From sequence record NC_015719.1: a stretch of 40,940 nucleotides of DNA; one strand, given 5' to 3'. This document shows, piece by piece, positions 2,053 to 38,215 of the stretch (its first letter is position 1; each line of letters begins with the position of its first letter). This stretch comes from Escherichia phage K30. Under the pieces are notes generated by a model that searched no databases, was not told where the DNA came from, and saw only the letters and a list, made by a program, of their open reading frames with translations. A program made the position numbers and the translations under genes.

Positions 2053-3057
2053 ATGAACTACACCGACATGCAAGCACGCTTAGACGTCATCCGCAACCTG
2101 CCAATCTGTGAACTTGACAAGCGCCAGCCGCTGCTGGTATCACTCATCGCAAACATCGTGAACTACGAGACGTCTGACGGTGACGATACGGACAGCAATT
2201 GGGGTCTTGAAAGTCAGGGCTACTGGCAAACCTTGAAGATTAAGGCTAAAGACGCTGGGTTTAACCTGCTGGGTAATGGCCACTTCAGCGCGGCGTTTAA
2301 GCACGAGCTACTGCCGGGCAAGGTCATTAAGGTTGGCTTTAAGAAAGAAGACTCAGGGGCCGCCTATGTGGCTTTCTGTCGGATGCACCAAGGTCGGGTA
2401 GGGATACCTAATGTCTATCACGTAGCGCGTCACGCTGGCTGCTATACGGTGGTACTTGATGAGCTGGAACCATGTCAGCGCCGTGATAACCATAAGCACG
2501 ACCATTATGCAGACCTTGCGTATTACTTTGTCGAGGGAGAACCAGACCCAGAGGTATACGCGAAGGATGATCTACCATTCATCGAGACGTGCCAGATGAT
2601 TCGTAAGTTCTTCTACGGGATTGCATCATTTGATATGCATAGTGGCAACATTATGTTTACACCGGATGGTAAACCAGTGATTACCGACCCAGTGTCATTC
2701 TCAGCGGACCGGGACCGCAAGCCTTTCTCGCTGGAGCCTGAGGGCCTGCTCGCAGAGATTGAGCAGATAGCGCACGACAAGATGATTGAACGCTGTAAGC
2801 GTAACAAGGCCAAACGTGACCGTGACAGTACGCTGTGTCGTGCCCGTAGAGCAAACAACAAGGCCCGTAGAAACCGCGCTAAAGCAGCCGCGCGATGGCG
2901 GAAGGAGCGGGAAAAGCGTGTTGCCGAGCGCTTTAAGTATGACCTTGCGAAAATCGAGGAGCGCGTTCTAGCGTGGCAAGTGGGACCCGGCCTAGCAATA
3001 CAACAAGGCAAGCCGCTACCAATCGACAACTACCTTCAAGGTAGACTTATGGGTTAA
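2053..3057 (+). CDS. 0.7: Serine/threonine protein kinase, host shut-off (T7 gene 0.7)
   Basis: 334 aa; recalled strong similarity to T7 gp0.7 (LPICELDKRQ, AGF..LGNGHFSAA, KVGFKKEDSGAAY.AFCRM, FDMHSGNIMF); synteny. Confidence 0.9.
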   Translation: MNYTDMQARLDVIRNLPICELDKRQPLLVSLIANIVNYETSDGDDTDSNWGLESQGYWQTLKIKAKDAGFNLLGNGHFSAAFKHELLPGKVIKVGFKKEDSGAAYVAFCRMHQGRVGIPNVYHVARHAGCYTVVLDELEPCQRRDNHKHDHYADLAYYFVEGEPDPEVYAKDDLPFIETCQMIRKFFYGIASFDMHSGNIMFTPDGKPVITDPVSFSADRDRKPFSLEPEGLLAEIEQIAHDKMIERCKRNKAKRDRDSTLCRARRANNKARRNRAKAAARWRKEREKRVAERFKYDLAKIEERVLAWQVGPGLAIQQGKPLPIDNYLQGRLMG

Positions 3058-3070
3058 CGAGGTGTATCTT

Positions 3071-3094
3071 AGGTGCCTCCACCGCGAGGCACCT
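3071..3094 (+). promoter_or_regulatory. Perfect 9-bp stem-loop upstream of gene 1 (possible R1-type processing site)
   Basis: aggtgcctc / caccgc / gaggcacct read directly; no T-run follows, so not a classic intrinsic terminator. Confidence 0.35.
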
Positions 3095-3144
3095 ATAGAT
3101 AAACTTTATTCACCGCCAGTTTACTGGCACCAAAGAGGCACACA

Positions 3145-5865
3145 ATGAACGCATTAAACATTGCACGTAATGACTTCTCAGAGATTGAACTGGCCGCTAT
3201 TCCGTACAACATCCTCAGTGAGCACTACGGGGACAGACTGGCACGTGAGCAGTTAGCACTGGAGCACGAAGCGTACGAGCTGGGCGAACAGCGTTTCCTG
3301 AAGATGTTAGAACGTCAGGTTAAAGCTGGTGAGTTCGCCGACAACGTGGCCGCTAAGCCGCTGGTCTTAACGCTGCACCCACAGCTAACCAAACGCATCG
3401 ACGATTGGAAGGAGGAGCAAGCAAACGCTCGCGGCAAGAAGCCTCGCGCATACTACCCGATTAAGCACGGCGTTGCCTCAGAGTTAGCCCTTAGCATGGG
3501 AGCTGAGGTACTCAATGAGAAGCGTGGAGTGTCCAGTGAGGCTATCGCACTGCTGACCATTAAGGTCGTCTTAGGGACGCTCACAGACGCCTCTAAAGCC
3601 ACCATCCAGCAAGTATCCTCGCAGTTAGGCAAGGCGCTTGAGGATGAGGCCCGCTTCGGTCGTATCCGTGAGCAGGAGGCTTCCTACTTCAAGAAGAACG
3701 TAGCGGACCAGCTGGACAAGCGTGTGGGTCACGTGTACAAGAAGGCTTTCATGCAGGTCGTCGAGGCCGATATGATTTCCAAGGGGATGCTAGGCGGTGA
3801 CAACTGGTCCAGCTGGAAGACCGACGAGCAGATGCACGTTGGGACCAAGCTACTGGAACTACTCATTGAGGGCACTGGTCTGGTGGAAATGACCAAGAAC
3901 AAGATGGCCGATGGCTCTGACGATGTGACCAGCATGCAAATGGTCCAGCTGGCTCCAGCCTTCGTGGAACTACTGAGTAAACGAGCGGGAGCACTCGCAG
4001 GAATCAGCCCAATGTACCAACCGTGCGTAGTCCCTCCGAAACCTTGGGTTGAAACCGTGGGAGGTGGCTACTGGTCTGTAGGTCGTCGTCCGCTGGCACT
4101 GGTGCGTACCCACTCCAAGAAGGCACTGCGTCGCTACGAAGACGTTCACATGCCAGAGGTATACAAAGCGGTCAACCTCGCGCAGAACACACCGTGGAAG
4201 GTAAACAAGAAGGTACTGGCGGTAGTCAATGAGATTATCAACTGGAAGCACTGCCCGGTGGGTGACGTCCCAGCGATTGAACGCGAAGAGCTACCACCAC
4301 GCCCGGACGATATCGACACCAACGAGGTGGCACGTAAGGCTTGGCGCAAGGAGGCCGCAGCGGTTTACCGTAAGGACAAGGCCCGCCAGTCTCGCCGCTT
4401 GTCGATGGAGTTCATGGTCGCACAGGCCAACAAGTTCGCTAACCACAAGGCCATCTGGTTCCCGTACAACATGGACTGGCGTGGTCGTGTGTACGCTGTG
4501 AGCATGTTTAACCCACAGGGTAATGATATGACCAAGGGTATGCTGACATTGGCCAAAGGTAAGCCAATCGGTCTCGATGGGTTCTACTGGCTGAAGATTC
4601 ATGGTGCAAACTGTGCAGGCGTCGATAAGGTTCCTTTCCCTGAGCGCATCAAGTTCATCGAAGAGAACGAGGCCAACATTCTAGCGAGTGCAGCCGACCC
4701 GCTGAATAACACTTGGTGGACCCAGCAAGATTCACCGTTCTGTTTCTTAGCGTTCTGCTTTGAGTATGCAGGGGTAAAACATCACGGCCTGAATTATAAC
4801 TGTTCGCTGCCACTGGCGTTCGATGGGTCCTGCTCTGGGATTCAGCACTTCAGCGCAATGCTCCGCGATTCTATCGGTGGTCGTGCTGTTAACCTGCTGC
4901 CTTCTGATACCGTGCAGGATATCTACAAGATTGTTGCCGACAAGGTTAATGAGGTACTCCACCAGCACGTTATCAACGGGTCTCAGACGGTGGTCGAGCA
5001 GATTGCTGATAAGGAGACTGGTGAGTTCCGCGAGAAGGTAATGTTGGGCGAGTCTGTACTAGCTGCTCAATGGTTACAATACGGGGTGACCCGCAAGGTG
5101 ACCAAGCGTTCTGTCATGACGTTGGCGTATGGTTCCAAAGAGTTTGGCTTCCGCCAGCAAGTTCTGGAAGATACCATTCAGCCCGCTATCGACAATGGTG
5201 AGGGCCTGATGTTTACGCACCCTAACCAAGCGGCTGGCTACATGGCTAAGCTGATTTGGGACGCTGTGACCGTGACCGTAGTAGCCGCTGTCGAGGCGAT
5301 GAACTGGCTGAAGTCTGCTGCTAAACTGCTTGCCGCTGAAGTCAAGGATAAGAAGACCAAGGAGGTACTTCGTAAGCGTTGCGCAATCCACTGGGTAACA
5401 CCAGATGGCTTCCCAGTGTGGCAAGAGTACCGCAAGCAGAATCAAGCGCGCCTGAAGCTGGTCTTCCTAGGTCAAGCCAACGTTAAGATGACGTACAACA
5501 CCGGGAAGGACTCAGAGATTGACGCTCACAAGCAGGAATCTGGTATCGCTCCTAACTTTGTACACTCGCAAGACGGTAGTCACCTTCGCATGACCGTAGT
5601 ACATGCCAACGAGGTCTACGGGATTGACTCCTTCGCACTCATCCATGACTCCTTCGGGACCATTCCGGCAGACGCTGGGAATCTCTTTAAGGCAGTCCGT
5701 GAGACGATGGTAAAGACCTACGAGGACAACGATGTAATCGCTGACTTCTACAACCAGTTCGCTGACCAGCTGCACGAGTCTCAGCTTGACAAGATGCCAG
5801 CGGTACCAGCCAAAGGTGACCTTAATCTGCGTGATATCTTAGAGTCTGACTTTGCGTTTGCGTAA
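3145..5865 (+). CDS. 1: Single-subunit DNA-directed RNA polymerase (T7 gene 1)
   Basis: 906 aa; colinear recalled similarity to T7 RNAP across the whole length; C-terminal ...ILESDFAFA. Confidence 0.98.
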   Translation: MNALNIARNDFSEIELAAIPYNILSEHYGDRLAREQLALEHEAYELGEQRFLKMLERQVKAGEFADNVAAKPLVLTLHPQLTKRIDDWKEEQANARGKKPRAYYPIKHGVASELALSMGAEVLNEKRGVSSEAIALLTIKVVLGTLTDASKATIQQVSSQLGKALEDEARFGRIREQEASYFKKNVADQLDKRVGHVYKKAFMQVVEADMISKGMLGGDNWSSWKTDEQMHVGTKLLELLIEGTGLVEMTKNKMADGSDDVTSMQMVQLAPAFVELLSKRAGALAGISPMYQPCVVPPKPWVETVGGGYWSVGRRPLALVRTHSKKALRRYEDVHMPEVYKAVNLAQNTPWKVNKKVLAVVNEIINWKHCPVGDVPAIEREELPPRPDDIDTNEVARKAWRKEAAAVYRKDKARQSRRLSMEFMVAQANKFANHKAIWFPYNMDWRGRVYAVSMFNPQGNDMTKGMLTLAKGKPIGLDGFYWLKIHGANCAGVDKVPFPERIKFIEENEANILASAADPLNNTWWTQQDSPFCFLAFCFEYAGVKHHGLNYNCSLPLAFDGSCSGIQHFSAMLRDSIGGRAVNLLPSDTVQDIYKIVADKVNEVLHQHVINGSQTVVEQIADKETGEFREKVMLGESVLAAQWLQYGVTRKVTKRSVMTLAYGSKEFGFRQQVLEDTIQPAIDNGEGLMFTHPNQAAGYMAKLIWDAVTVTVVAAVEAMNWLKSAAKLLAAEVKDKKTKEVLRKRCAIHWVTPDGFPVWQEYRKQNQARLKLVFLGQANVKMTYNTGKDSEIDAHKQESGIAPNFVHSQDGSHLRMTVVHANEVYGIDSFALIHDSFGTIPADAGNLFKAVRETMVKTYEDNDVIADFYNQFADQLHESQLDKMPAVPAKGDLNLRDILESDFAFA

Positions 5866-5875
5866 GGTCTCAGGC

Positions 5876-5898
5876 AATTAGGGCACACTATAGGGAAC
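5876..5898 (+). promoter_or_regulatory. Phage RNAP promoter (phi1.1A-like), aattagggcacactatagggaac
   Basis: Consensus match; followed by AT-rich repeats of acttaaag. Confidence 0.85.
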
Positions 5899-5963
5899 CT
5901 TCGAACGACCGAGGTTTCCATTACTTAAAGTCTTAACTTAAAGAATACTTAAAGAGGCACACC

Positions 5964-6524
5964 ATGACTTACTCAATCGTTGTAACCATCTTGTTAATCA
6001 TCACCACAACGCTCTTCATTGTGAGTCTTCGCAATGCAATACGCAACGAAGAACTATTGGGGCGTTTGATTCAAGAAGCAAACTCCCAGCTTAGTGATGC
6101 GTCGACCAAGGTTCTTCGACTGACGGACAAGGCTAACTTCCTTGGTAAACAGGTGCGTTACTTAGAGAGTGAACTTGAGGAAGAAAAGCAGAAGGTGCTA
6201 GATGTGTACGAACTACGGAAGCGACAGCGGGACCGCATGAAGTTCCTGAGCAAGTCTCTTAAGGAAGCCCAAGATGAGCTGATGATGGTCTCTGACCTGA
6301 TTCACGTTAAGTTCACCGCTGTGTTACCTGATGGCACTCGCTCTAAGACTCTCTTTAAGTTAGGACTTGGACCTTGTGGTCTACACGTTAAGTCCCTTCG
6401 CTGGACTGAGCTAGACGACCGCTATCTGATAGACCAGCTGTGCACCAACGGCGAGCGCAAGCAGTTCACTTACTTTAAGAGCGAAGTAGTAGGGCGTATC
6501 GAGTTCCGCCACGGTAAGGTTTAA
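5964..6524 (+). CDS. Hypothetical membrane-anchored coiled-coil protein (gene 1.05 position)
   Basis: 186 aa; N-terminal hydrophobic helix, heptad-like charged stretch, about 80-aa C-terminal domain; AAAGAGG RBS; sits between two phage promoters. Confidence 0.6.
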   Translation: MTYSIVVTILLIITTTLFIVSLRNAIRNEELLGRLIQEANSQLSDASTKVLRLTDKANFLGKQVRYLESELEEEKQKVLDVYELRKRQRDRMKFLSKSLKEAQDELMMVSDLIHVKFTAVLPDGTRSKTLFKLGLGPCGLHVKSLRWTELDDRYLIDQLCTNGERKQFTYFKSEVVGRIEFRHGKV

Positions 6525-6545
6525 TTAGGGCACACTATCAGGAAC
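6523..6545 (+). promoter_or_regulatory. Variant phage promoter (phi1.1B-like), aattagggcacactatCAggaac
   Basis: Upstream half matches the consensus exactly; the initiation region is TATCAGG instead of TATAGGG. Confidence 0.55.
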
Positions 6546-6547
6546 AT

Positions 6548-6578
6548 ACTCAAGGTCATCGTTCGGTGGCCTTTATGA
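6548..6578 (+). promoter_or_regulatory. RNase III-type processing hairpin (R1.1-like)
   Basis: actcaaggtcatc-gttc-ggtggcctttatga: 9-bp stem with G:U pairs; same conserved flanks as T7 R1.1 (recalled). Confidence 0.6.
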
Positions 6579-6609
6579 ATGTCCCTAACAACCACTCAGG
6601 AGTAACACC

Positions 6610-6786
6610 ATGTATCAGAACACAATCAACTTTGAGCGCAAACGTGAACGTCAGCAGACTGAGGGTTATATCCCTAAGGGCCGCAAGTTGAACAAGACGA
6701 AGCGCGGTGGTGGCATGAAGGGTTCCTTCCGTAATGCGAAGGGCGACAGTGTTGTCAACCAAGAGAAATACTTCGTAGGAGCATAA
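6610..6786 (+). CDS. 1.1: Gene 1.1-like small basic protein
   Basis: 58 aa; shares KGRKLNKTKR with T7 gp1.1 (recalled); GGAG RBS; not in the ORF track because under 60 aa. Confidence 0.6.
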   Translation: MYQNTINFERKRERQQTEGYIPKGRKLNKTKRGGGMKGSFRNAKGDSVVNQEKYFVGA

Positions 6787-6789
6787 CAA

Positions 6790-7056
6790 ATGGCTGAGCA
6801 AACTAAATGGCTGTTCGATGGTAGCACTTCACAGTGGTCACGATTGGGCGCTACCGAACGAAGACTGACGGATGAGACGGGACTACATGTAATCATGACG
6901 TATATCCATTTCAACCGCACAGTTTTACTCTCCGTGTATGAACCAAGACCAGATTATGACGAGGTACTCATAGAGAAATCCTTCAGTCGCTGGTCGATTG
7001 ACTCAGCGTCAGACTGGCTGGCAAAACTCACAGCCGACTACTCAAGTTGGAAGTAA
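6790..7056 (+). CDS. 1.2: Gene 1.2-like protein (candidate host dGTPase inhibitor)
   Basis: 88 aa; position between 1.1 and ligase; weak recalled similarity at the C-terminus (..DW..K..WK). Confidence 0.55.
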   Translation: MAEQTKWLFDGSTSQWSRLGATERRLTDETGLHVIMTYIHFNRTVLLSVYEPRPDYDEVLIEKSFSRWSIDSASDWLAKLTADYSSWK

Positions 7057-7156: not shown

Positions 7157-8209
7157 ATGATGAACATTACGACTAATCCATATAAAGCCGTTTCATACGT
7201 ACGCTCTGCTATCGAGAAGGCGCTGGAGACTTCCGGTTACCTCATCGCGGACACTAAGCACGATGGTGTACGCGGGAACATTTGCGTAGACAACACGGCC
7301 AACGCAGCGTGGCTAAGCCGGGTCTCAAAGACCATTCCGGCCCTTGAGCACCTCAACGGTTTCGACCAGCGCTGGCAGCAGTTACTGAAAGATGACCGCT
7401 GGATTTTCCCGGATGGCTTCATGCTTGATGGTGAACTCATGGTCAAAGGTGTGGACTTCAACACTGGGTCTGGCCTGCTGCGTACCAAGTGGCTAAAGGC
7501 TACCAACTACGGGTTCGACTTCGGAGGTGTTCCACCACTGAAGGGTAGCAAGGTAGATTTCTGCCTCGACCCTAAGCAACTAAAAGTTGTTCTGTACGAT
7601 ATCATTCCGCTTGACATTATCGAATCCGGTGATGACTACAACGTGATGACCCTCCTCCGCCTTGAGCACGTCAAGGTAGCCTTACCAGTCCTGCAAGACC
7701 ACTTCCCTGAAGTTGAGTGGTGCCTCTCTGAGTCCCATGAAGTTTACGACATGGACGAACTCGATGCGCTGTACCGACAGAAACGAGGAGAAGGTCATGA
7801 AGGTCTGGTGGTTAAGGACCCTCAGGGTATATATAAGCGCGGTAAGAAGTCCGGCTGGTGGAAACTGAAGCCAGAGAATGAGGCTGACGGTGTAGTAGTT
7901 GGTCTCGTGTGGGGCACTCCCGGTAAGGCCAACGAGGGTAAAGTGATTGGCTTCGAGGTTCTCCTTGAGAGTGGTAGAGTGGTTAACGCTACGAACATCT
8001 CACAGGAACTTATGGATGAGTTCACCTCTCGCGTCAAGGAATACACTACCGAGTGTAATGCTAATGAAGCTGGCTGCTGGTATATGAACCCTTACGAGGG
8101 CTGGGCGTGCCAAATCAAGTACATGGAGGAGACTCCAGACGGTTCTCTGCGTCACCCATCGTTCGATAAATGGCGTGGTAGCGAGGCTGACCCAACCATC
8201 AAGATGTAA
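7157..8209 (+). CDS. 1.3: ATP-dependent DNA ligase (T7 gene 1.3)
   Basis: 350 aa; recalled strong similarity to T7 ligase including the adenylation motif region (IKYDGVRG in T7, TKHDGVRG here) and C-terminal ETPDGSLRHPSF. Confidence 0.95.
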   Translation: MMNITTNPYKAVSYVRSAIEKALETSGYLIADTKHDGVRGNICVDNTANAAWLSRVSKTIPALEHLNGFDQRWQQLLKDDRWIFPDGFMLDGELMVKGVDFNTGSGLLRTKWLKATNYGFDFGGVPPLKGSKVDFCLDPKQLKVVLYDIIPLDIIESGDDYNVMTLLRLEHVKVALPVLQDHFPEVEWCLSESHEVYDMDELDALYRQKRGEGHEGLVVKDPQGIYKRGKKSGWWKLKPENEADGVVVGLVWGTPGKANEGKVIGFEVLLESGRVVNATNISQELMDEFTSRVKEYTTECNANEAGCWYMNPYEGWACQIKYMEETPDGSLRHPSFDKWRGSEADPTIKM

Positions 8210-8325: not shown

Positions 8326-8589
8326 ATGCGCTTACACTTCAATAAATCAAACGGTATCTTCTCGGTTCGCCGGGAAGACCGCAGCACTGTGGTAGCCTCC
8401 GAGCGCCACGGTAAGATTCCACGTATCGGAGACACCTTCGAGCTGGCTCCTCGCGTGCACATCTTGGTTACTCGCGGTCTCTACGAATTGGCTCAGACTA
8501 AGAGCCGTCCTTTCGTACCCGTAGTGGTAACCAAGTGGCCACGCCTTCGTCTATTCTGGGAGCGCATCAAGGAGGTCGTAAATGACTGA
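8326..8589 (+). CDS. 1.6: Gene 1.6-like protein
   Basis: 87 aa; recalled similarity to T7 gp1.6 (MFRLHYNKS...VRRADRS..ASER..KIP...RIKEV); AAAGGAG RBS. Confidence 0.7.
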   Translation: MRLHFNKSNGIFSVRREDRSTVVASERHGKIPRIGDTFELAPRVHILVTRGLYELAQTKSRPFVPVVVTKWPRLRLFWERIKEVVND

Positions 8590-9007
8590 ACATGAAATTC
8601 TAGTGGTGAACCTGCTGGTTGACCAGAATGCTGACCGCCCAGACTCCACGACGTGCTCTGATGGCGTAAAGTGCTACAAGGTAGCGTGCAAGGAGTGTCC
8701 GCTTAATGTCAAAGGAATGACCATTGGGAAGGTGCGTGCAATGCAGGACAGTAAGACTCCAGATGTAGACAATGGTGTCAAGCAGCCAAGTCACTATCAA
8801 CTGTTCGAAGGCGTCGAGGCCATCGAGGTTATTGCTCGAAGCATGACCCAAGAGATGTTCAAAGGGTACTGCCTTGGGAACATCCTCAAGTACCGACTCC
8901 GTGCTGGTAAGAAGTCCGAGCTGGCTACCTTAGAGAAAGACATGGCAAAGGCCGCTTTCTATCTGGAGCTGTATACCAAGCACAAAGGTCTGTGTTATGA
9001 CGCCTAG
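8582..9007 (+). CDS. 1.7: Nucleotide kinase (T7 gene 1.7)
   Basis: 141 aa; C-terminal half matches T7 gp1.7 from memory (PSHY.LF...EAIEVIARSMT.E.FKGYC.GNILKYRLRAGKKSELA.LEKD.AKA.FY.EL); shorter N-terminus than T7. Confidence 0.85.
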   Translation: MTEHEILVVNLLVDQNADRPDSTTCSDGVKCYKVACKECPLNVKGMTIGKVRAMQDSKTPDVDNGVKQPSHYQLFEGVEAIEVIARSMTQEMFKGYCLGNILKYRLRAGKKSELATLEKDMAKAAFYLELYTKHKGLCYDA

Positions 9008-37207: not shown

Positions 37208-37411
37208 ATGTTGTCCCTAGACTTCAACAACGAAGTTATCAAGGCGGCTCCCATTGCGGGGGTCGCTGGGGCTGACGGTGTAGCGAGGCTCTTCTGGGGC
37301 CTCTCACTCAACGAGTGGTTCTACGTCGCGGCAATCGCCTACACAGTGGTTCAGATTGGTGCCAAGGTAGTCGACAAAATCATTGACTGGAAGAAAGCAA
37401 ATAAGGAGTAA
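37208..37411 (+). CDS. 17.5: Class II holin (T7 gene 17.5)
   Basis: 67 aa; recalled near-identity to T7 gp17.5 (MLSLDFNNE.IKAAPI, LSLNEWFYVAAIAYTVVQIGAKVVDK.IDWKKANKE). Confidence 0.9.
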   Translation: MLSLDFNNEVIKAAPIAGVAGADGVARLFWGLSLNEWFYVAAIAYTVVQIGAKVVDKIIDWKKANKE

Positions 37412-37768: not shown

Positions 37769-38215
37769 ATGCTGGGGTTCACAAAGAGAATCGTCCCGTA
37801 TCTTGTGGCTATCATGGTGTTTGCCTTCGGGTGGCACTTGGGTTCGCAATCTACGGACGCTAAATGGAAGGAGGTAGTACAGAATGAGTACGTTTCGAAG
37901 CAAACAGCTAGAGTTCAAACTCAAGCAGCACTTGATGAGATATCGGCTAAGTACCAAGCAGACCTTGAGGGGCTGGAGGGCAGCACTGATAGGATTATTG
38001 CTGATTTGCGTAGCGACAATAAGCGGCTGCGCGTTAGAGTCAAACCTACCAGTGTCGCCGCAGGACCAGACGGTCGATGCCTCGTTGATGGTTCCGTCGA
38101 ACTACACGAAGCAACTGCTCGAAGTCTTATCGCAATAACCCAGAAGGCCGACCTCAAAGAGAAGGCCCTACAGGACACTATTCGTAAGCTACAGCGGAAA
38201 GGAGGTGAACATTGA
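37769..38215 (+). CDS. 18.5: Rz-like i-spanin (T7 gene 18.5)
   Basis: 148 aa; N-terminal TM segment; recalled similarity to T7 gp18.5 ([43 protein letters not shown]). Confidence 0.9.
37884..38138 (+). CDS. 18.7: Rz1-like o-spanin lipoprotein, embedded in gene 18.5 (T7 gene 18.7)
   Basis: 84 aa in the +1 frame inside 18.5; lipobox ...[11 protein letters not shown]; recalled similarity to T7 gp18.7. Confidence 0.8.
   Translation: MSTFRSKQLEFKLKQHLMRYRLSTKQTLRGWRAALIGLLLICVATISGCALESNLPVSPQDQTVDASLMVPSNYTKQLLEVLSQ

What the first reader, a model, noticed from the sequence alone, without database searches (positions are those of the whole stretch)
5876..6545. Membrane-anchored coiled-coil early gene between two phage promoters
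In T7 the phi1.1A and phi1.1B promoters are adjacent. Here a 186-aa ORF (5964-6524) separates them. It has an N-terminal transmembrane helix, a long charged heptad-like region and a compact C-terminal domain, with no homolog I recognise. Its early position fits host takeover, superinfection exclusion or anti-defence.
Basis: partly seen in the sequence, partly recalled or inferred. Interest (0 to 1): 0.65.

Follow-up and report, generated by a model that had tools for sequence, protein, structure and literature searches.

The report
K11-type gene 1.05 membrane-tethered protein

Summary
The window is a complete K11-like Przondovirus genome. ORF 5964-6524 (186 aa) lies between two K11-type promoters, 5876-5898 and 6523-6545, as reported.

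It is not an orphan. It is the ortholog of K11 gene 1.05, annotated "gp1.05 fusion protein". It matches PHROG 6440 over its full length (E 4e-91). Residues 112-182 are Pfam PF25755, the T3 gene 1.05 protein (E 6e-26). T3, phiYeO3-12, Berlin-like and Pectobacterium phages have the same promoter-gene-promoter layout; T7 lacks the gene.

The architecture is confirmed:
- a transmembrane helix at residues 4-22;
- an unbroken heptad coiled coil at 23-108;
- a six-stranded beta domain at 112-183 (AlphaFold pLDDT 91).

The beta domain is under strong purifying selection (dN/dS 0.07). Residues about 13-79 form a sharply bounded recombining cassette with three allele classes. The cassette co-varies with no other phage gene.

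About one third of 196 diverse family members carry an N-terminal membrane anchor. Most of the rest are the bare soluble domain.

No structural or sequence neighbour of known function was found, and the literature searched reports no role. My best reading is a cytoplasm-facing, membrane-tethered binding module for an unidentified partner. That function is inferred, not shown.

The parts
5876..5898 (+). Phage RNA polymerase promoter, equivalent to K11/T3 phi1.05. Transcription would start at G5893.
   Evidence: Exact match to the K11 consensus. The window has 13 such sites and 0 are expected by chance. K11 annotates phi1.05 at the same position.
5893..5919 (+). 5' hairpin of the phi1.05 transcript
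   Evidence: The centroid structure is -13.4 kcal/mol. The z-score for the 83-nt leader is -2.4. The hairpin arms are kept in K11-type relatives, and KP32 has a shorter variant.
5920..5963 (+). AT-rich leader with three ACTTAAAG repeats (5923-5930, 5936-5943, 5947-5954) and the Shine-Dalgarno AAGAGG at 5952-5957. It is a candidate equivalent of the T3 primary replication origin.
   Evidence: The repeats are invariant in six Przondovirus sequences, including KP32. The T3 and phiYeO3-12 records annotate rep_origin directly after phi1.05, overlapping the start of gene 1.05. Origin function in this phage is inferred only.
5964..6524 (+). Gene 1.05 (186 aa plus stop), ortholog of the K11 'gp1.05 fusion protein'
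   Evidence: PHROG 6440 matches residues 1-186 of its 186 positions, E 3.7e-91. Identity to K11 gp1.05 is 81%. 164 homologs were found. dN/dS is 0.07-0.57 by region.
5973..6029 (+). Transmembrane helix, residues 4-22 (SIVVTILLIITTTLFIVSL)
   Evidence: Kyte-Doolittle mean 2.56 over 19 residues. There is no K/R in the 3-residue N-tail and 3 K/R in the next 15 residues. It lies within the confident helix of the AF2 model.
6030..6287 (+). Coiled-coil stalk, residues 23-108 (about 12 heptads, about 13 nm)
   Evidence: A single register is kept throughout. The a/d positions stay hydrophobic in all allele types and vary less than the other positions. AF2 gives a helix at 2-108 with pLDDT above 90.
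6000..6200 (+). Hypervariable recombining cassette, about residues 13-79. It covers the C-terminal half of the membrane helix, the juxtamembrane stretch and the first five heptads.
   Evidence: This stretch has the lowest mean pairwise nucleotide identity (0.57-0.69) in the 8.5-kb early region. It falls into three allele classes of 23, 18 and 3 loci, each under purifying selection at about 0.2. Correlation with the flanks drops to about 0.1 within 150 bp.
6297..6512 (+). Gp1.05 beta domain, residues 112-183. It has six strands and the motifs F-x-LGLGxCG and GRI.
   Evidence: Pfam PF25755 scores 90.6 bits against a cut-off of 27. AF2 pLDDT is about 90. F131, L133, G136, C138 and G139 are invariant in 91 diverse sequences. 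dN/dS is 0.07.
6523..6545 (+). Phage promoter, equivalent to K11/T3 phi1.1, overlapping the stop codon of gene 1.05
   Evidence: Two mismatches to the consensus. K11 annotates phi1.1 at the same position.
6540..6586 (+). Stem-loop in the phi1.1 leader, probably equivalent to the T3 R1.1 RNase III site
   Evidence: The hairpin at 6552-6573 is in the centroid structure, though the z-score is only -0.6. T3 annotates R1.1 at the equivalent place with a similar sequence.

Best explanation
Shown. This is gene 1.05 of a K11-like Klebsiella phage, an accessory gene that T7 lacks. It would be transcribed from promoter phi1.05 directly after the RNA polymerase gene. The protein has three parts: a single N-terminal membrane helix (residues 4-22), an unbroken coiled-coil stalk of about 86 residues, and a 75-residue all-beta domain. 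The beta domain is the only part shared with the 90-residue T3 gp1.05.

Inferred topology. The three-residue N-terminus faces the periplasm, and the stalk and beta domain face the cytoplasm. The stalk probably forms a parallel dimer, because a positions are mostly I/V and d positions mostly L.

Inferred mechanism, my best guess. The beta domain is a binding module for a conserved cytoplasmic partner, more likely a protein than nucleic acid. The anchor and stalk display it as an oligomer about 13 nm below the inner membrane. The partner would then be held or inactivated at the membrane from early in infection. The membrane-proximal cassette (residues about 13-79) occurs as three freely recombining allele classes. 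It would tune something other than the beta domain's target, such as self-association or contact with a variable host membrane component.

I rate identity and architecture at about 0.9 and the sequestration mechanism at about 0.3.
For: Identity:
- PHROG 6440 matches over the full length, and Pfam PF25755 matches residues 112-182.
- K11 annotates the same gene between phi1.05 and phi1.1.
- In 16 of 17 more distant loci the gene lies next to the RNA polymerase gene, downstream in 15 and upstream in one.

Architecture:
- Hydrophobicity and heptad analysis.
- AF2 model with pLDDT 91.

Cytoplasmic orientation:
- There is no positive charge before the helix, and R23, R27 and R34 follow it.
- The phage's own i-spanin, which has the opposite orientation, carries K6 and R7 before its helix.
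- 117 of 196 diverse family members are the bare domain with no signal peptide, so the domain works in the cytoplasm.

Binding-module reading:
- The domain is strongly conserved (dN/dS 0.07, entropy 0.17) while everything N-terminal to it is replaceable.
- The domain has been joined to a membrane helix alone, to a coiled coil alone, or to both, with N-terminal sequences that are not alike between lineages.
- No catalytic family matches it.

Protein rather than nucleic acid as partner:
- The domain's pI ranges from 5.4 to 9.3 across the family, and 27% of domains are net negative.

Accessory status:
- T7 lacks the gene.
- Natural frameshifted and internally deleted versions exist.
Against: - No partner, localisation or phenotype is known. 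The function is inferred from architecture alone.
- The charge bias around the membrane helix is weak across the family. Mean net charge is -0.18 before and +0.39 after the helix, and only 47% of members show the expected direction.
- The oligomeric state was not modelled.
- The cassette's allele type co-varies with no other phage protein segment. A phage-encoded partner for the cassette is therefore unlikely, and its diversity could be largely neutral.
- Two thirds of family members need no membrane anchor, so tethering is not central to what the domain does.
Confidence: 0.4

Rival explanations
1. It is a replication or genome organiser, like phage phi29 p16.7. On this reading the beta domain binds phage DNA, ssDNA or a replication protein and attaches the replicating genome to the membrane. 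The gene sits beside the primary origin.
For: The architecture and timing match p16.7, an integral membrane protein that recruits phi29 terminal protein and displaced ssDNA to the membrane (paper PMC4974454). The TM/coiled-coil/DNA-binding layout of p16.7 is from my own knowledge. The T3 and phiYeO3-12 records place the primary origin at the start of gene 1.05. The best, non-significant, structural neighbours are WYL domains (BrxR, PafBC). That WYL domains are small beta barrels, some of which bind nucleic acid, is from my own knowledge. A Sphingobium homolog lies beside ORFs that I read, by eye and without a family search, as a 5'-3' exonuclease and a nucleotidase. The window's domain is basic, pI 9.3.
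Against: The domain's charge is not conserved: pI runs from 5.4 to 9.3 and 27% of domains are net negative. There is no homology to p16.7 or to any DNA-binding family. T7 replicates from the same origin region without this gene. Most family members are not membrane-bound.
Confidence: 0.15
2. It mediates superinfection exclusion or phage-phage competition. An early membrane protein would block entry or establishment of a second related phage, with the allelic membrane-proximal cassette setting which competitors are excluded.
For: It is made early and is membrane-anchored. The membrane-proximal cassette exists as three discrete, individually conserved allele classes that recombine freely among otherwise about 93% identical genomes. 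That pattern would fit frequency-dependent selection. The cassette co-varies with no other phage gene.
Against: The conserved functional part faces the cytoplasm and occurs mostly as a soluble protein in other phages. It shows no similarity to known exclusion proteins in Pfam, PHROGs or NCBIfam. Within each allele class the signal is purifying selection, not positive selection (about 0.2).
Confidence: 0.15
3. It is an anti-defence protein. The beta domain would inhibit or sponge a component of a host immune system, and tethering would remove that component from the cytoplasm.
For: It sits in the early accessory block alongside the known host-interference genes 0.3, 0.7, 1.2 and 2. It is accessory and patchily distributed among T7-like genera. 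The variable cassette is one of several divergence hot spots. Others fall in the 0.7 kinase and in the dGTPase inhibitor gp1.2. A 2025 paper lists this 'fusion protein' among the differences that might explain the differing replication efficiency of two Przondoviruses, and states that no role has been published (PMC12295037).
Against: No anti-defence or defence model matches it; the only PADLOC hit is coiled-coil noise, E 0.02. The beta domain is almost invariant among phages that infect many different Klebsiella strains, which argues against an arms race at that surface. No experiment exists.
Confidence: 0.15
4. It is a lysis protein of the i-spanin type (membrane helix plus coiled coil), or else a meaningless ORF that merely spaces two promoters around the origin.
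For: The layout of a membrane helix followed by a coiled coil resembles Rz or T7 gp18.5. The first 22 codons show unusually low synonymous divergence (dS 0.08-0.20 against 0.3-0.5 elsewhere). That hints at a constraint on the DNA itself.
Against: The window has its own holin (37208-37411), i-spanin (37769-38215) and embedded o-spanin (37884-38138) in the late region. Gene 1.05 lies in the early region. Its charge distribution, R23/R27/R34 after the helix and none before, is the reverse of the i-spanin's K6/R7 before its helix. The ORF length is kept at 186-187 codons in more than 110 orthologs, and dN/dS for the domain is 0.07. It therefore encodes a protein under selection.
Confidence: 0.03

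Closest known systems
Klebsiella phage K11 gene 1.05, 'gp1.05 fusion protein' (YP_002003794; PHROG 6440)
   Same: Same length of 186 aa. Same position between gene 1 and gene 1.1. Same flanking promoters phi1.05 and phi1.1. Same three-part architecture. 81% amino-acid identity.
   Different: The differences are concentrated in residues about 13-79. The window carries its own sub-variant of allele class A. No function is known for either protein.
Phage T3 gene 1.05 protein (NP_523302; Pfam PF25755 Phage_T3_1_05)
   Same: The C-terminal beta domain is homologous: about 36% identity, with the shared motifs FKLGLGPCG and GRI. Both genes lie between phi1.05 and phi1.1, beside the annotated primary origin.
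   Different: T3 gp1.05 has 90 residues and no membrane helix or coiled coil. It has only a short N-terminal peptide, MINIKTFFKNIFKL.
Phage phi29 p16.7 (membrane organiser of DNA replication)
   Same: An early phage membrane protein (PMC4974454). The TM helix, coiled coil and cytoplasmic C-terminal domain of p16.7 are from my own knowledge.
   Different: There is no sequence or structural similarity. The domain here is all-beta. p16.7 did not appear in the PDB sequence or fold searches. The p16.7 host is Gram-positive and its replication is protein-primed. DNA binding by gp1.05 is untested and not favoured by the charge data.
i-spanins (lambda Rz, T7 gp18.5)
   Same: An N-terminal membrane helix followed by a coiled coil.
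   Different: Opposite predicted orientation. Early rather than late gene. No partner lipoprotein. The window encodes a separate gp18.5/18.7 pair.
WYL / Sm-like small beta-barrel domains (for example BrxR 7qfz, PafBC 9fnd)
   Same: These are the best Foldseek hits for the beta domain (probability 0.93-0.97, about 75-84 aligned columns).
   Different: The hits are not significant (E 0.06-0.1, query-normalised TM 0.19-0.23). No Pfam WYL match was found in any of 91 family members.

Membership tests
K11-type gp1.05 'fusion protein' (PHROG 6440) | Full-length sequence match to the family profile | tested here: met
   PHROG 6440, E 3.7e-91, residues 1-186 on profile positions 1-186. Identity to 120 listed Przondovirus orthologs is 63-94%.
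K11-type gp1.05 'fusion protein' (PHROG 6440) | Position between the RNA polymerase gene and gene 1.1, flanked by promoters phi1.05 and phi1.1 | tested here: met
   The window layout is the same as the K11 annotation.
K11-type gp1.05 'fusion protein' (PHROG 6440) | N-terminal membrane helix plus coiled coil fused to the T3-type domain | tested here: met
Pfam PF25755 Phage_T3_1_05 | Score above the curated gathering cut-off | tested here: met
   90.6 bits against a cut-off of 27. Residues 112-182 match profile positions 2-72 of 73.
Pfam PF25755 Phage_T3_1_05 | Conserved core residues of the family (F-x-L-G-L-G-x-C-G and G-R-I) | tested here: met
   F131, L133, G136, C138 and G139 are invariant. 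G134, L135, V142, L145, Q158, K166, F168, Y170, G177 and R178 are at least 90% conserved in 91 sequences.
phi29 p16.7-like membrane replication organisers | Homology to the p16.7 C-terminal DNA-binding domain | tested here: not met
   The domain here is all-beta. p16.7 appeared in neither the PDB sequence searches nor the Foldseek PDB search.
phi29 p16.7-like membrane replication organisers | Binds DNA or ssDNA and a replication protein at the membrane | not testable with these tools
   This needs gel-shift, cross-linking or localisation experiments. The variable domain charge is weak evidence against it.
i-spanin (Rz / T7 gp18.5) | Encoded in the late lysis cassette together with an o-spanin lipoprotein | tested here: not met
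   Gene 1.05 is in the early region. The window has a separate i-spanin at 37769-38215 with an embedded lipoprotein ORF at 37884-38138.
i-spanin (Rz / T7 gp18.5) | N-in/C-out orientation with a periplasmic coiled coil | tested here: inconclusive
   The charge distribution predicts the opposite orientation, and the bare-domain homologs are cytoplasmic. No experimental topology exists, and the family-wide charge bias is weak.
WYL / Sm-like small beta barrels | Significant structural or profile similarity | tested here: not met
   Best Foldseek E is 0.06-0.1. None of 91 members matches a WYL model. The test was weakened because the search had to use the full-length model with its long helix.
Known anti-phage defence or anti-defence proteins (PADLOC models) | Match to a defence-system protein model | tested here: not met
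   The only hit is a coiled-coil match to LmuB at E 0.02. T3 gp1.05 matches nothing.

The most novel reading that the evidence does not exclude
The gp1.05 beta domain is a new effector fold of Autographiviridae that captures a conserved host protein. In enterobacterial lineages it has repeatedly been fitted with a membrane anchor and stalk. The membrane-proximal cassette, with three discrete alleles shuffled among near-identical Klebsiella phages and unlinked to any other phage gene, would then be a specificity determinant maintained by frequency-dependent selection. Candidate pressures are allele-specific exclusion of competing phages or recognition of a polymorphic host membrane component.
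Probability: 0.15. Interest if true: 0.6.

Novelty: already known. Interest (0 to 1): 0.3.

Why it matters
Gene 1.05 is among the most widespread unexplained early genes of T7-like phages. The beta domain forms at least 268 sequence clusters at 50% identity. Homologs occur in nearly every K11/KP32-type Klebsiella phage, a group now being engineered for therapy.

A 2025 paper lists this gene among the few differences that might explain why two such phages replicate with different efficiency on the same strains. It also notes that nothing is known about the gene's role (PMC12295037).

This analysis does not solve the function, but it narrows the experiments:
- the conserved beta domain is the piece to use as bait;
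- the protein should face the cytoplasm;
- the variable part is a bounded cassette of about 200 bp with three alleles that can be swapped cleanly;
- no phage-encoded partner for that cassette is visible.

It also offers a simple origin for T7's tandem promoters phi1.1A and phi1.1B, namely loss of this gene.

Tried and rejected
- **Single-sequence AlphaFold.** It modelled only the helix, and the domain scored below pLDDT 50. It was replaced by the alignment-based model.
- **Foldseek against PDB.** Nothing reached E 0.001. WYL, PH-like and ribosomal small barrels appeared only at E 0.06 or worse.
- **Foldseek against viral structures.** It returned only uncharacterised family members.
- **PDB sequence searches.** Only noise: Fin at E 0.48 and ezrin at E 0.34.
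- **Pfam on all 91 alignment members at E up to 10.** Only PF25755 plus coiled-coil noise.
- **NCBIfam and PADLOC.** Coiled-coil noise only.
- **Longer family members scanned for fused domains.** None found.
- **Rfam on 5700-6800.** Nothing. The sigma-70 scan also found nothing.
- **Literature searches.** Gene tables only. Two older phiYeO3-12 papers were not held.
- **Nucleic-acid-binding idea.** Weakened by the variable domain pI.
- **T3-type N-terminal amphipathic peptide as a universal membrane signal.** Rejected because most bare-domain members have no N-terminal extension at all.
- **Positive selection as the source of cassette diversity.** Within allele classes dN/dS is about 0.2. The elevated between-class dS (1.2) points instead to old alleles exchanged by recombination.
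- **Search for a co-varying phage partner of the cassette.** I ran nucleotide and protein scans over 44 near-complete genomes. The first version was flawed because blastn could not align allele classes B and C. The type-label versions found only the cassette's own flanks. The next best windows are a DNA window at 8851-9000 (z 4.5, Fst 0.18), ligase residues 241-280 (z 3.6) and primase residues 361-400 (z 3.4). At that strength I would not rely on them. The very divergent tailspike regions could not be assessed.

Full report
**What is at the coordinates.** The window is a complete T7-like phage genome of the K11 type. It carries 13 copies of the K11 promoter consensus AATTAGGGCACACTATAGGGA (up to three mismatches), where shuffles give none. 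It is identical to IMG/VR contig UViG_651703039. An exact promoter lies at 5876-5898. A second, with two mismatches (TATCAGGA), lies at 6523-6545 and overlaps the stop codon. Between them is one ORF, 5964-6524, of 186 codons. It is preceded by AAGAGG at 5952-5957. The opposite strand holds only 30-33 codon ORFs. In T7 the corresponding promoters phi1.1A and phi1.1B are 75 bp apart with nothing between them.

**Identity.** The ORF is not an orphan.
- Megablast finds the region in 369 phage records, almost all from Klebsiella.
- In phage K11 the same ORF is annotated as gene 1.05, "gp1.05 fusion protein", flanked by promoters named phi1.05 and phi1.1.
- The protein matches PHROG 6440 end to end (E 3.7e-91).
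- Residues 112-182 match Pfam PF25755, "Enterobacteria phage T3 gene 1.05 protein", at 90.6 bits against a cut-off of 27.
- T3 itself has phi1.05, an annotated primary replication origin, a 90-residue gene 1.05, phi1.1 and the RNase III site R1.1, in that order. phiYeO3-12 is annotated likewise.
- An alignment of the window, K11, kpssk3, a Berlin-like Yersinia phage, Pectobacterium phage PP81 and T3 shows that only the last 75 or so residues are shared. T3 has no N-terminal module. PP81 has a membrane helix only. Berlin-like and K11-like phages have a membrane helix plus a coiled coil.

**Architecture.**
- Residues 4-22 average 2.56 on the Kyte-Doolittle scale.
- Residues 23-108 keep one heptad register with 83% L/I/V/M/F/A at the a/d positions. 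Across 44 orthologs the a/d positions vary less than the others (p=0.004).
- The a positions are mostly I/V and the d positions mostly L. From my own knowledge of coiled-coil rules, that pattern favours a parallel dimer. I could not model this.
- A single-sequence AlphaFold run gave only the helix.
- With a 91-sequence alignment the model reached pLDDT 91. It has a helix at 2-108 and six strands at 112-120, 126-132, 141-149, 153-160, 165-171 and 175-183.

**Orientation (inferred).**
- The N-tail (MTY) has no charge, and R23, R27 and R34 follow the helix. The phage's own i-spanin, which must point the other way, has K6 and R7 before its helix.
- More persuasively, most family members are the bare domain with no signal sequence, so the domain works in the cytoplasm.
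- Across the family the charge bias is weak, so the orientation remains a prediction.

**Selection and population structure.** I took 44 Przondovirus loci from IMG/VR.
- dN/dS is 0.07 for the beta domain, 0.24 for the distal coiled coil, 0.47 for residues 23-60 and 0.57 for the membrane helix.
- The stretch 6014-6193 has the lowest mean pairwise nucleotide identity (0.57-0.69) in 8.5 kb of early region, where the background is about 0.93.
- This diversity is not a continuum. Residues 13-60 fall into three allele classes of 23, 18 and 3 loci, and the window belongs to the largest. Within each of the two large classes dN/dS is only 0.21-0.24; the three-locus class gives 0.47.
- Synonymous divergence between classes is saturated (1.2). 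These are old alleles moved by recombination, not products of recent positive selection.
- The cassette is sharply bounded. Correlation of its distances with the flanking DNA falls to about 0.1-0.2 within 150 bp on each side.

**Is there a phage-encoded partner for the cassette?** I tiled 44 genomes with three further IMG/VR scans. I then asked which other segment differs by cassette type.
- At the DNA level only the immediate flanks stand out: z 5.4 and 3.5. One weak distant window lies at 8851-9000, with z 4.5 and Fst 0.18.
- At the protein level, across 252 forty-residue windows, only gp1.05 itself is associated (z 15-17). The next best are ligase 241-280 (z 3.6) and primase 361-400 (z 3.4). 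At that strength I would not rely on them.
- The cassette therefore assorts independently of every alignable phage protein. Highly divergent tailspike segments could not be assessed.

**Breadth of the family.**
- An exhaustive profile search with the domain found 268 clusters at 50% identity with E up to 0.001.
- Of 196 diverse members, 117 are essentially the bare domain, five of them with a C-terminal tail. Another 62 have an N-terminal membrane helix, 49 of those with a linker of at least 40 residues. The remaining 17 have a non-membrane N-terminal extension of 40 residues or more, most of which look coiled-coil on inspection.
- The N-terminal modules of different lineages are not alike in sequence, and no other known domain is ever attached.
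- In 15 of the 17 more distant loci the gene lies directly downstream of the RNA polymerase gene. In one Pseudomonas locus it lies directly upstream. One Sphingobium contig has no polymerase gene near it; there I read the neighbouring ORFs by eye as exonuclease- and nucleotidase-like.

**What the domain resembles.** Nothing convincingly.
- Foldseek against PDB gave no hit below E 0.001. The best were the WYL domains of BrxR and PafBC (E 0.06-0.1), then PH-like and ribosomal small barrels.
- The viral structure library returned only uncharacterised relatives.
- afdb50 was unavailable.
- PDB sequence searches, NCBIfam and PADLOC gave only noise.
- The domain's pI ranges from 5.4 to 9.3 across the family, and 27% of domains are net negative. 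That argues against a conserved general nucleic-acid-binding role.

**Interpretation.**
- Shown: a real, expressed-looking, conserved accessory early gene. It encodes a membrane helix, a coiled-coil stalk of about 13 nm and a strongly conserved small beta domain. A bounded allelic cassette lies next to the membrane.
- Inferred: the cytoplasmic orientation, a dimeric stalk, and a role as a tethered binding module that holds an unidentified conserved cytoplasmic partner at the membrane.
- The rivals are a phi29 p16.7-like replication tether (PMC4974454), superinfection exclusion with allele-specific recognition, and anti-defence. None is excluded, and each needs the experiments listed.
- A lysis role is contradicted by the separate holin and spanin genes. 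A non-coding spacer role is contradicted by the selection data.

**Verdict.** Its function remains open. The interest lies in the family's breadth and in the cassette structure described here, not in the existence of the ORF.

Noticed in passing
window 5893-5963: The phi1.05 leader has a 5' hairpin (5893-5919) followed by three ACTTAAAG repeats (5923-5930, 5936-5943, 5947-5954). The repeats are invariant even in KP32. The T3 and phiYeO3-12 records place the primary replication origin at the equivalent spot. This is probably the origin of this phage too.
   Followed up: partly
window 5964-6029: Synonymous divergence in the first 22 codons of gene 1.05 is only 0.08-0.20, against 0.3-0.5 in the rest of the gene. 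This suggests a constraint on the DNA or RNA itself, such as the origin or translation initiation.
   Followed up: no
L066 1263-1821; L068 617-814; L067 349-424: There is a decay series for this gene. One Klebsiella phage assembly has a 1-nt frameshift that splits it into 72-aa and 106-aa ORFs, and that product cluster has 27 member sequences. Yersinia phage fPS-9 keeps only a 65-aa ORF, a membrane helix plus the last half of the beta domain, still between two promoters. T7 has no ORF and two promoters 75 bp apart. T7's tandem phi1.1A/B may be what remains after loss of gene 1.05.
   Followed up: partly
window 2804-3043, 6764-7003, 7484-7603, 7964-8083, 8564-8803: There are other sharp divergence hot spots among otherwise about 93% identical Przondovirus early regions. 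They fall in the C-terminal part of the 0.7 kinase, in the dGTPase inhibitor gp1.2, in two patches of the ligase, and in the N-terminal part of gp1.7. None is linked to the gene 1.05 cassette.
   Followed up: partly
window 8851-9000: This is the only distant DNA window with some association to the gene 1.05 cassette type (Fst 0.18, z 4.5). It lies at the end of gp1.7 and the start of gp1.8. The protein-level scan did not reproduce it.
   Followed up: partly
window 6523-6545: The phi1.1 promoter reads TATCAGGA where the consensus has TATAGGGA around the start site. It may therefore be weaker or start differently from the other class II promoters.
   Followed up: no
L003 1234-1290 (T3 gene 1.05 start): T3-type gp1.05 and some relatives begin with a short hydrophobic-basic peptide (MINIKTFFKNIFKL, MFNFIKNIF...). 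It looks like an amphipathic membrane-binding helix. Most bare-domain members have no such extension.
   Followed up: partly
L063 3860-4255: A homolog of the domain sits on a GC-rich Sphingobium contig that IMG/VR classes as viral. It is next to ORFs that I read, by eye only, as a 5'-3' exonuclease and a HAD-type nucleotidase, and no T7-type RNA polymerase gene lies in the 8.2 kb held.
   Followed up: no
L002 (KN3-1) 2226-3196: In phage KN3-1 the match to the window spans about 330 bp more than the query. The record annotates nothing between gene 1.05 and the ligase gene. There may be an insertion or unannotated genes downstream of gene 1.05.
   Followed up: no
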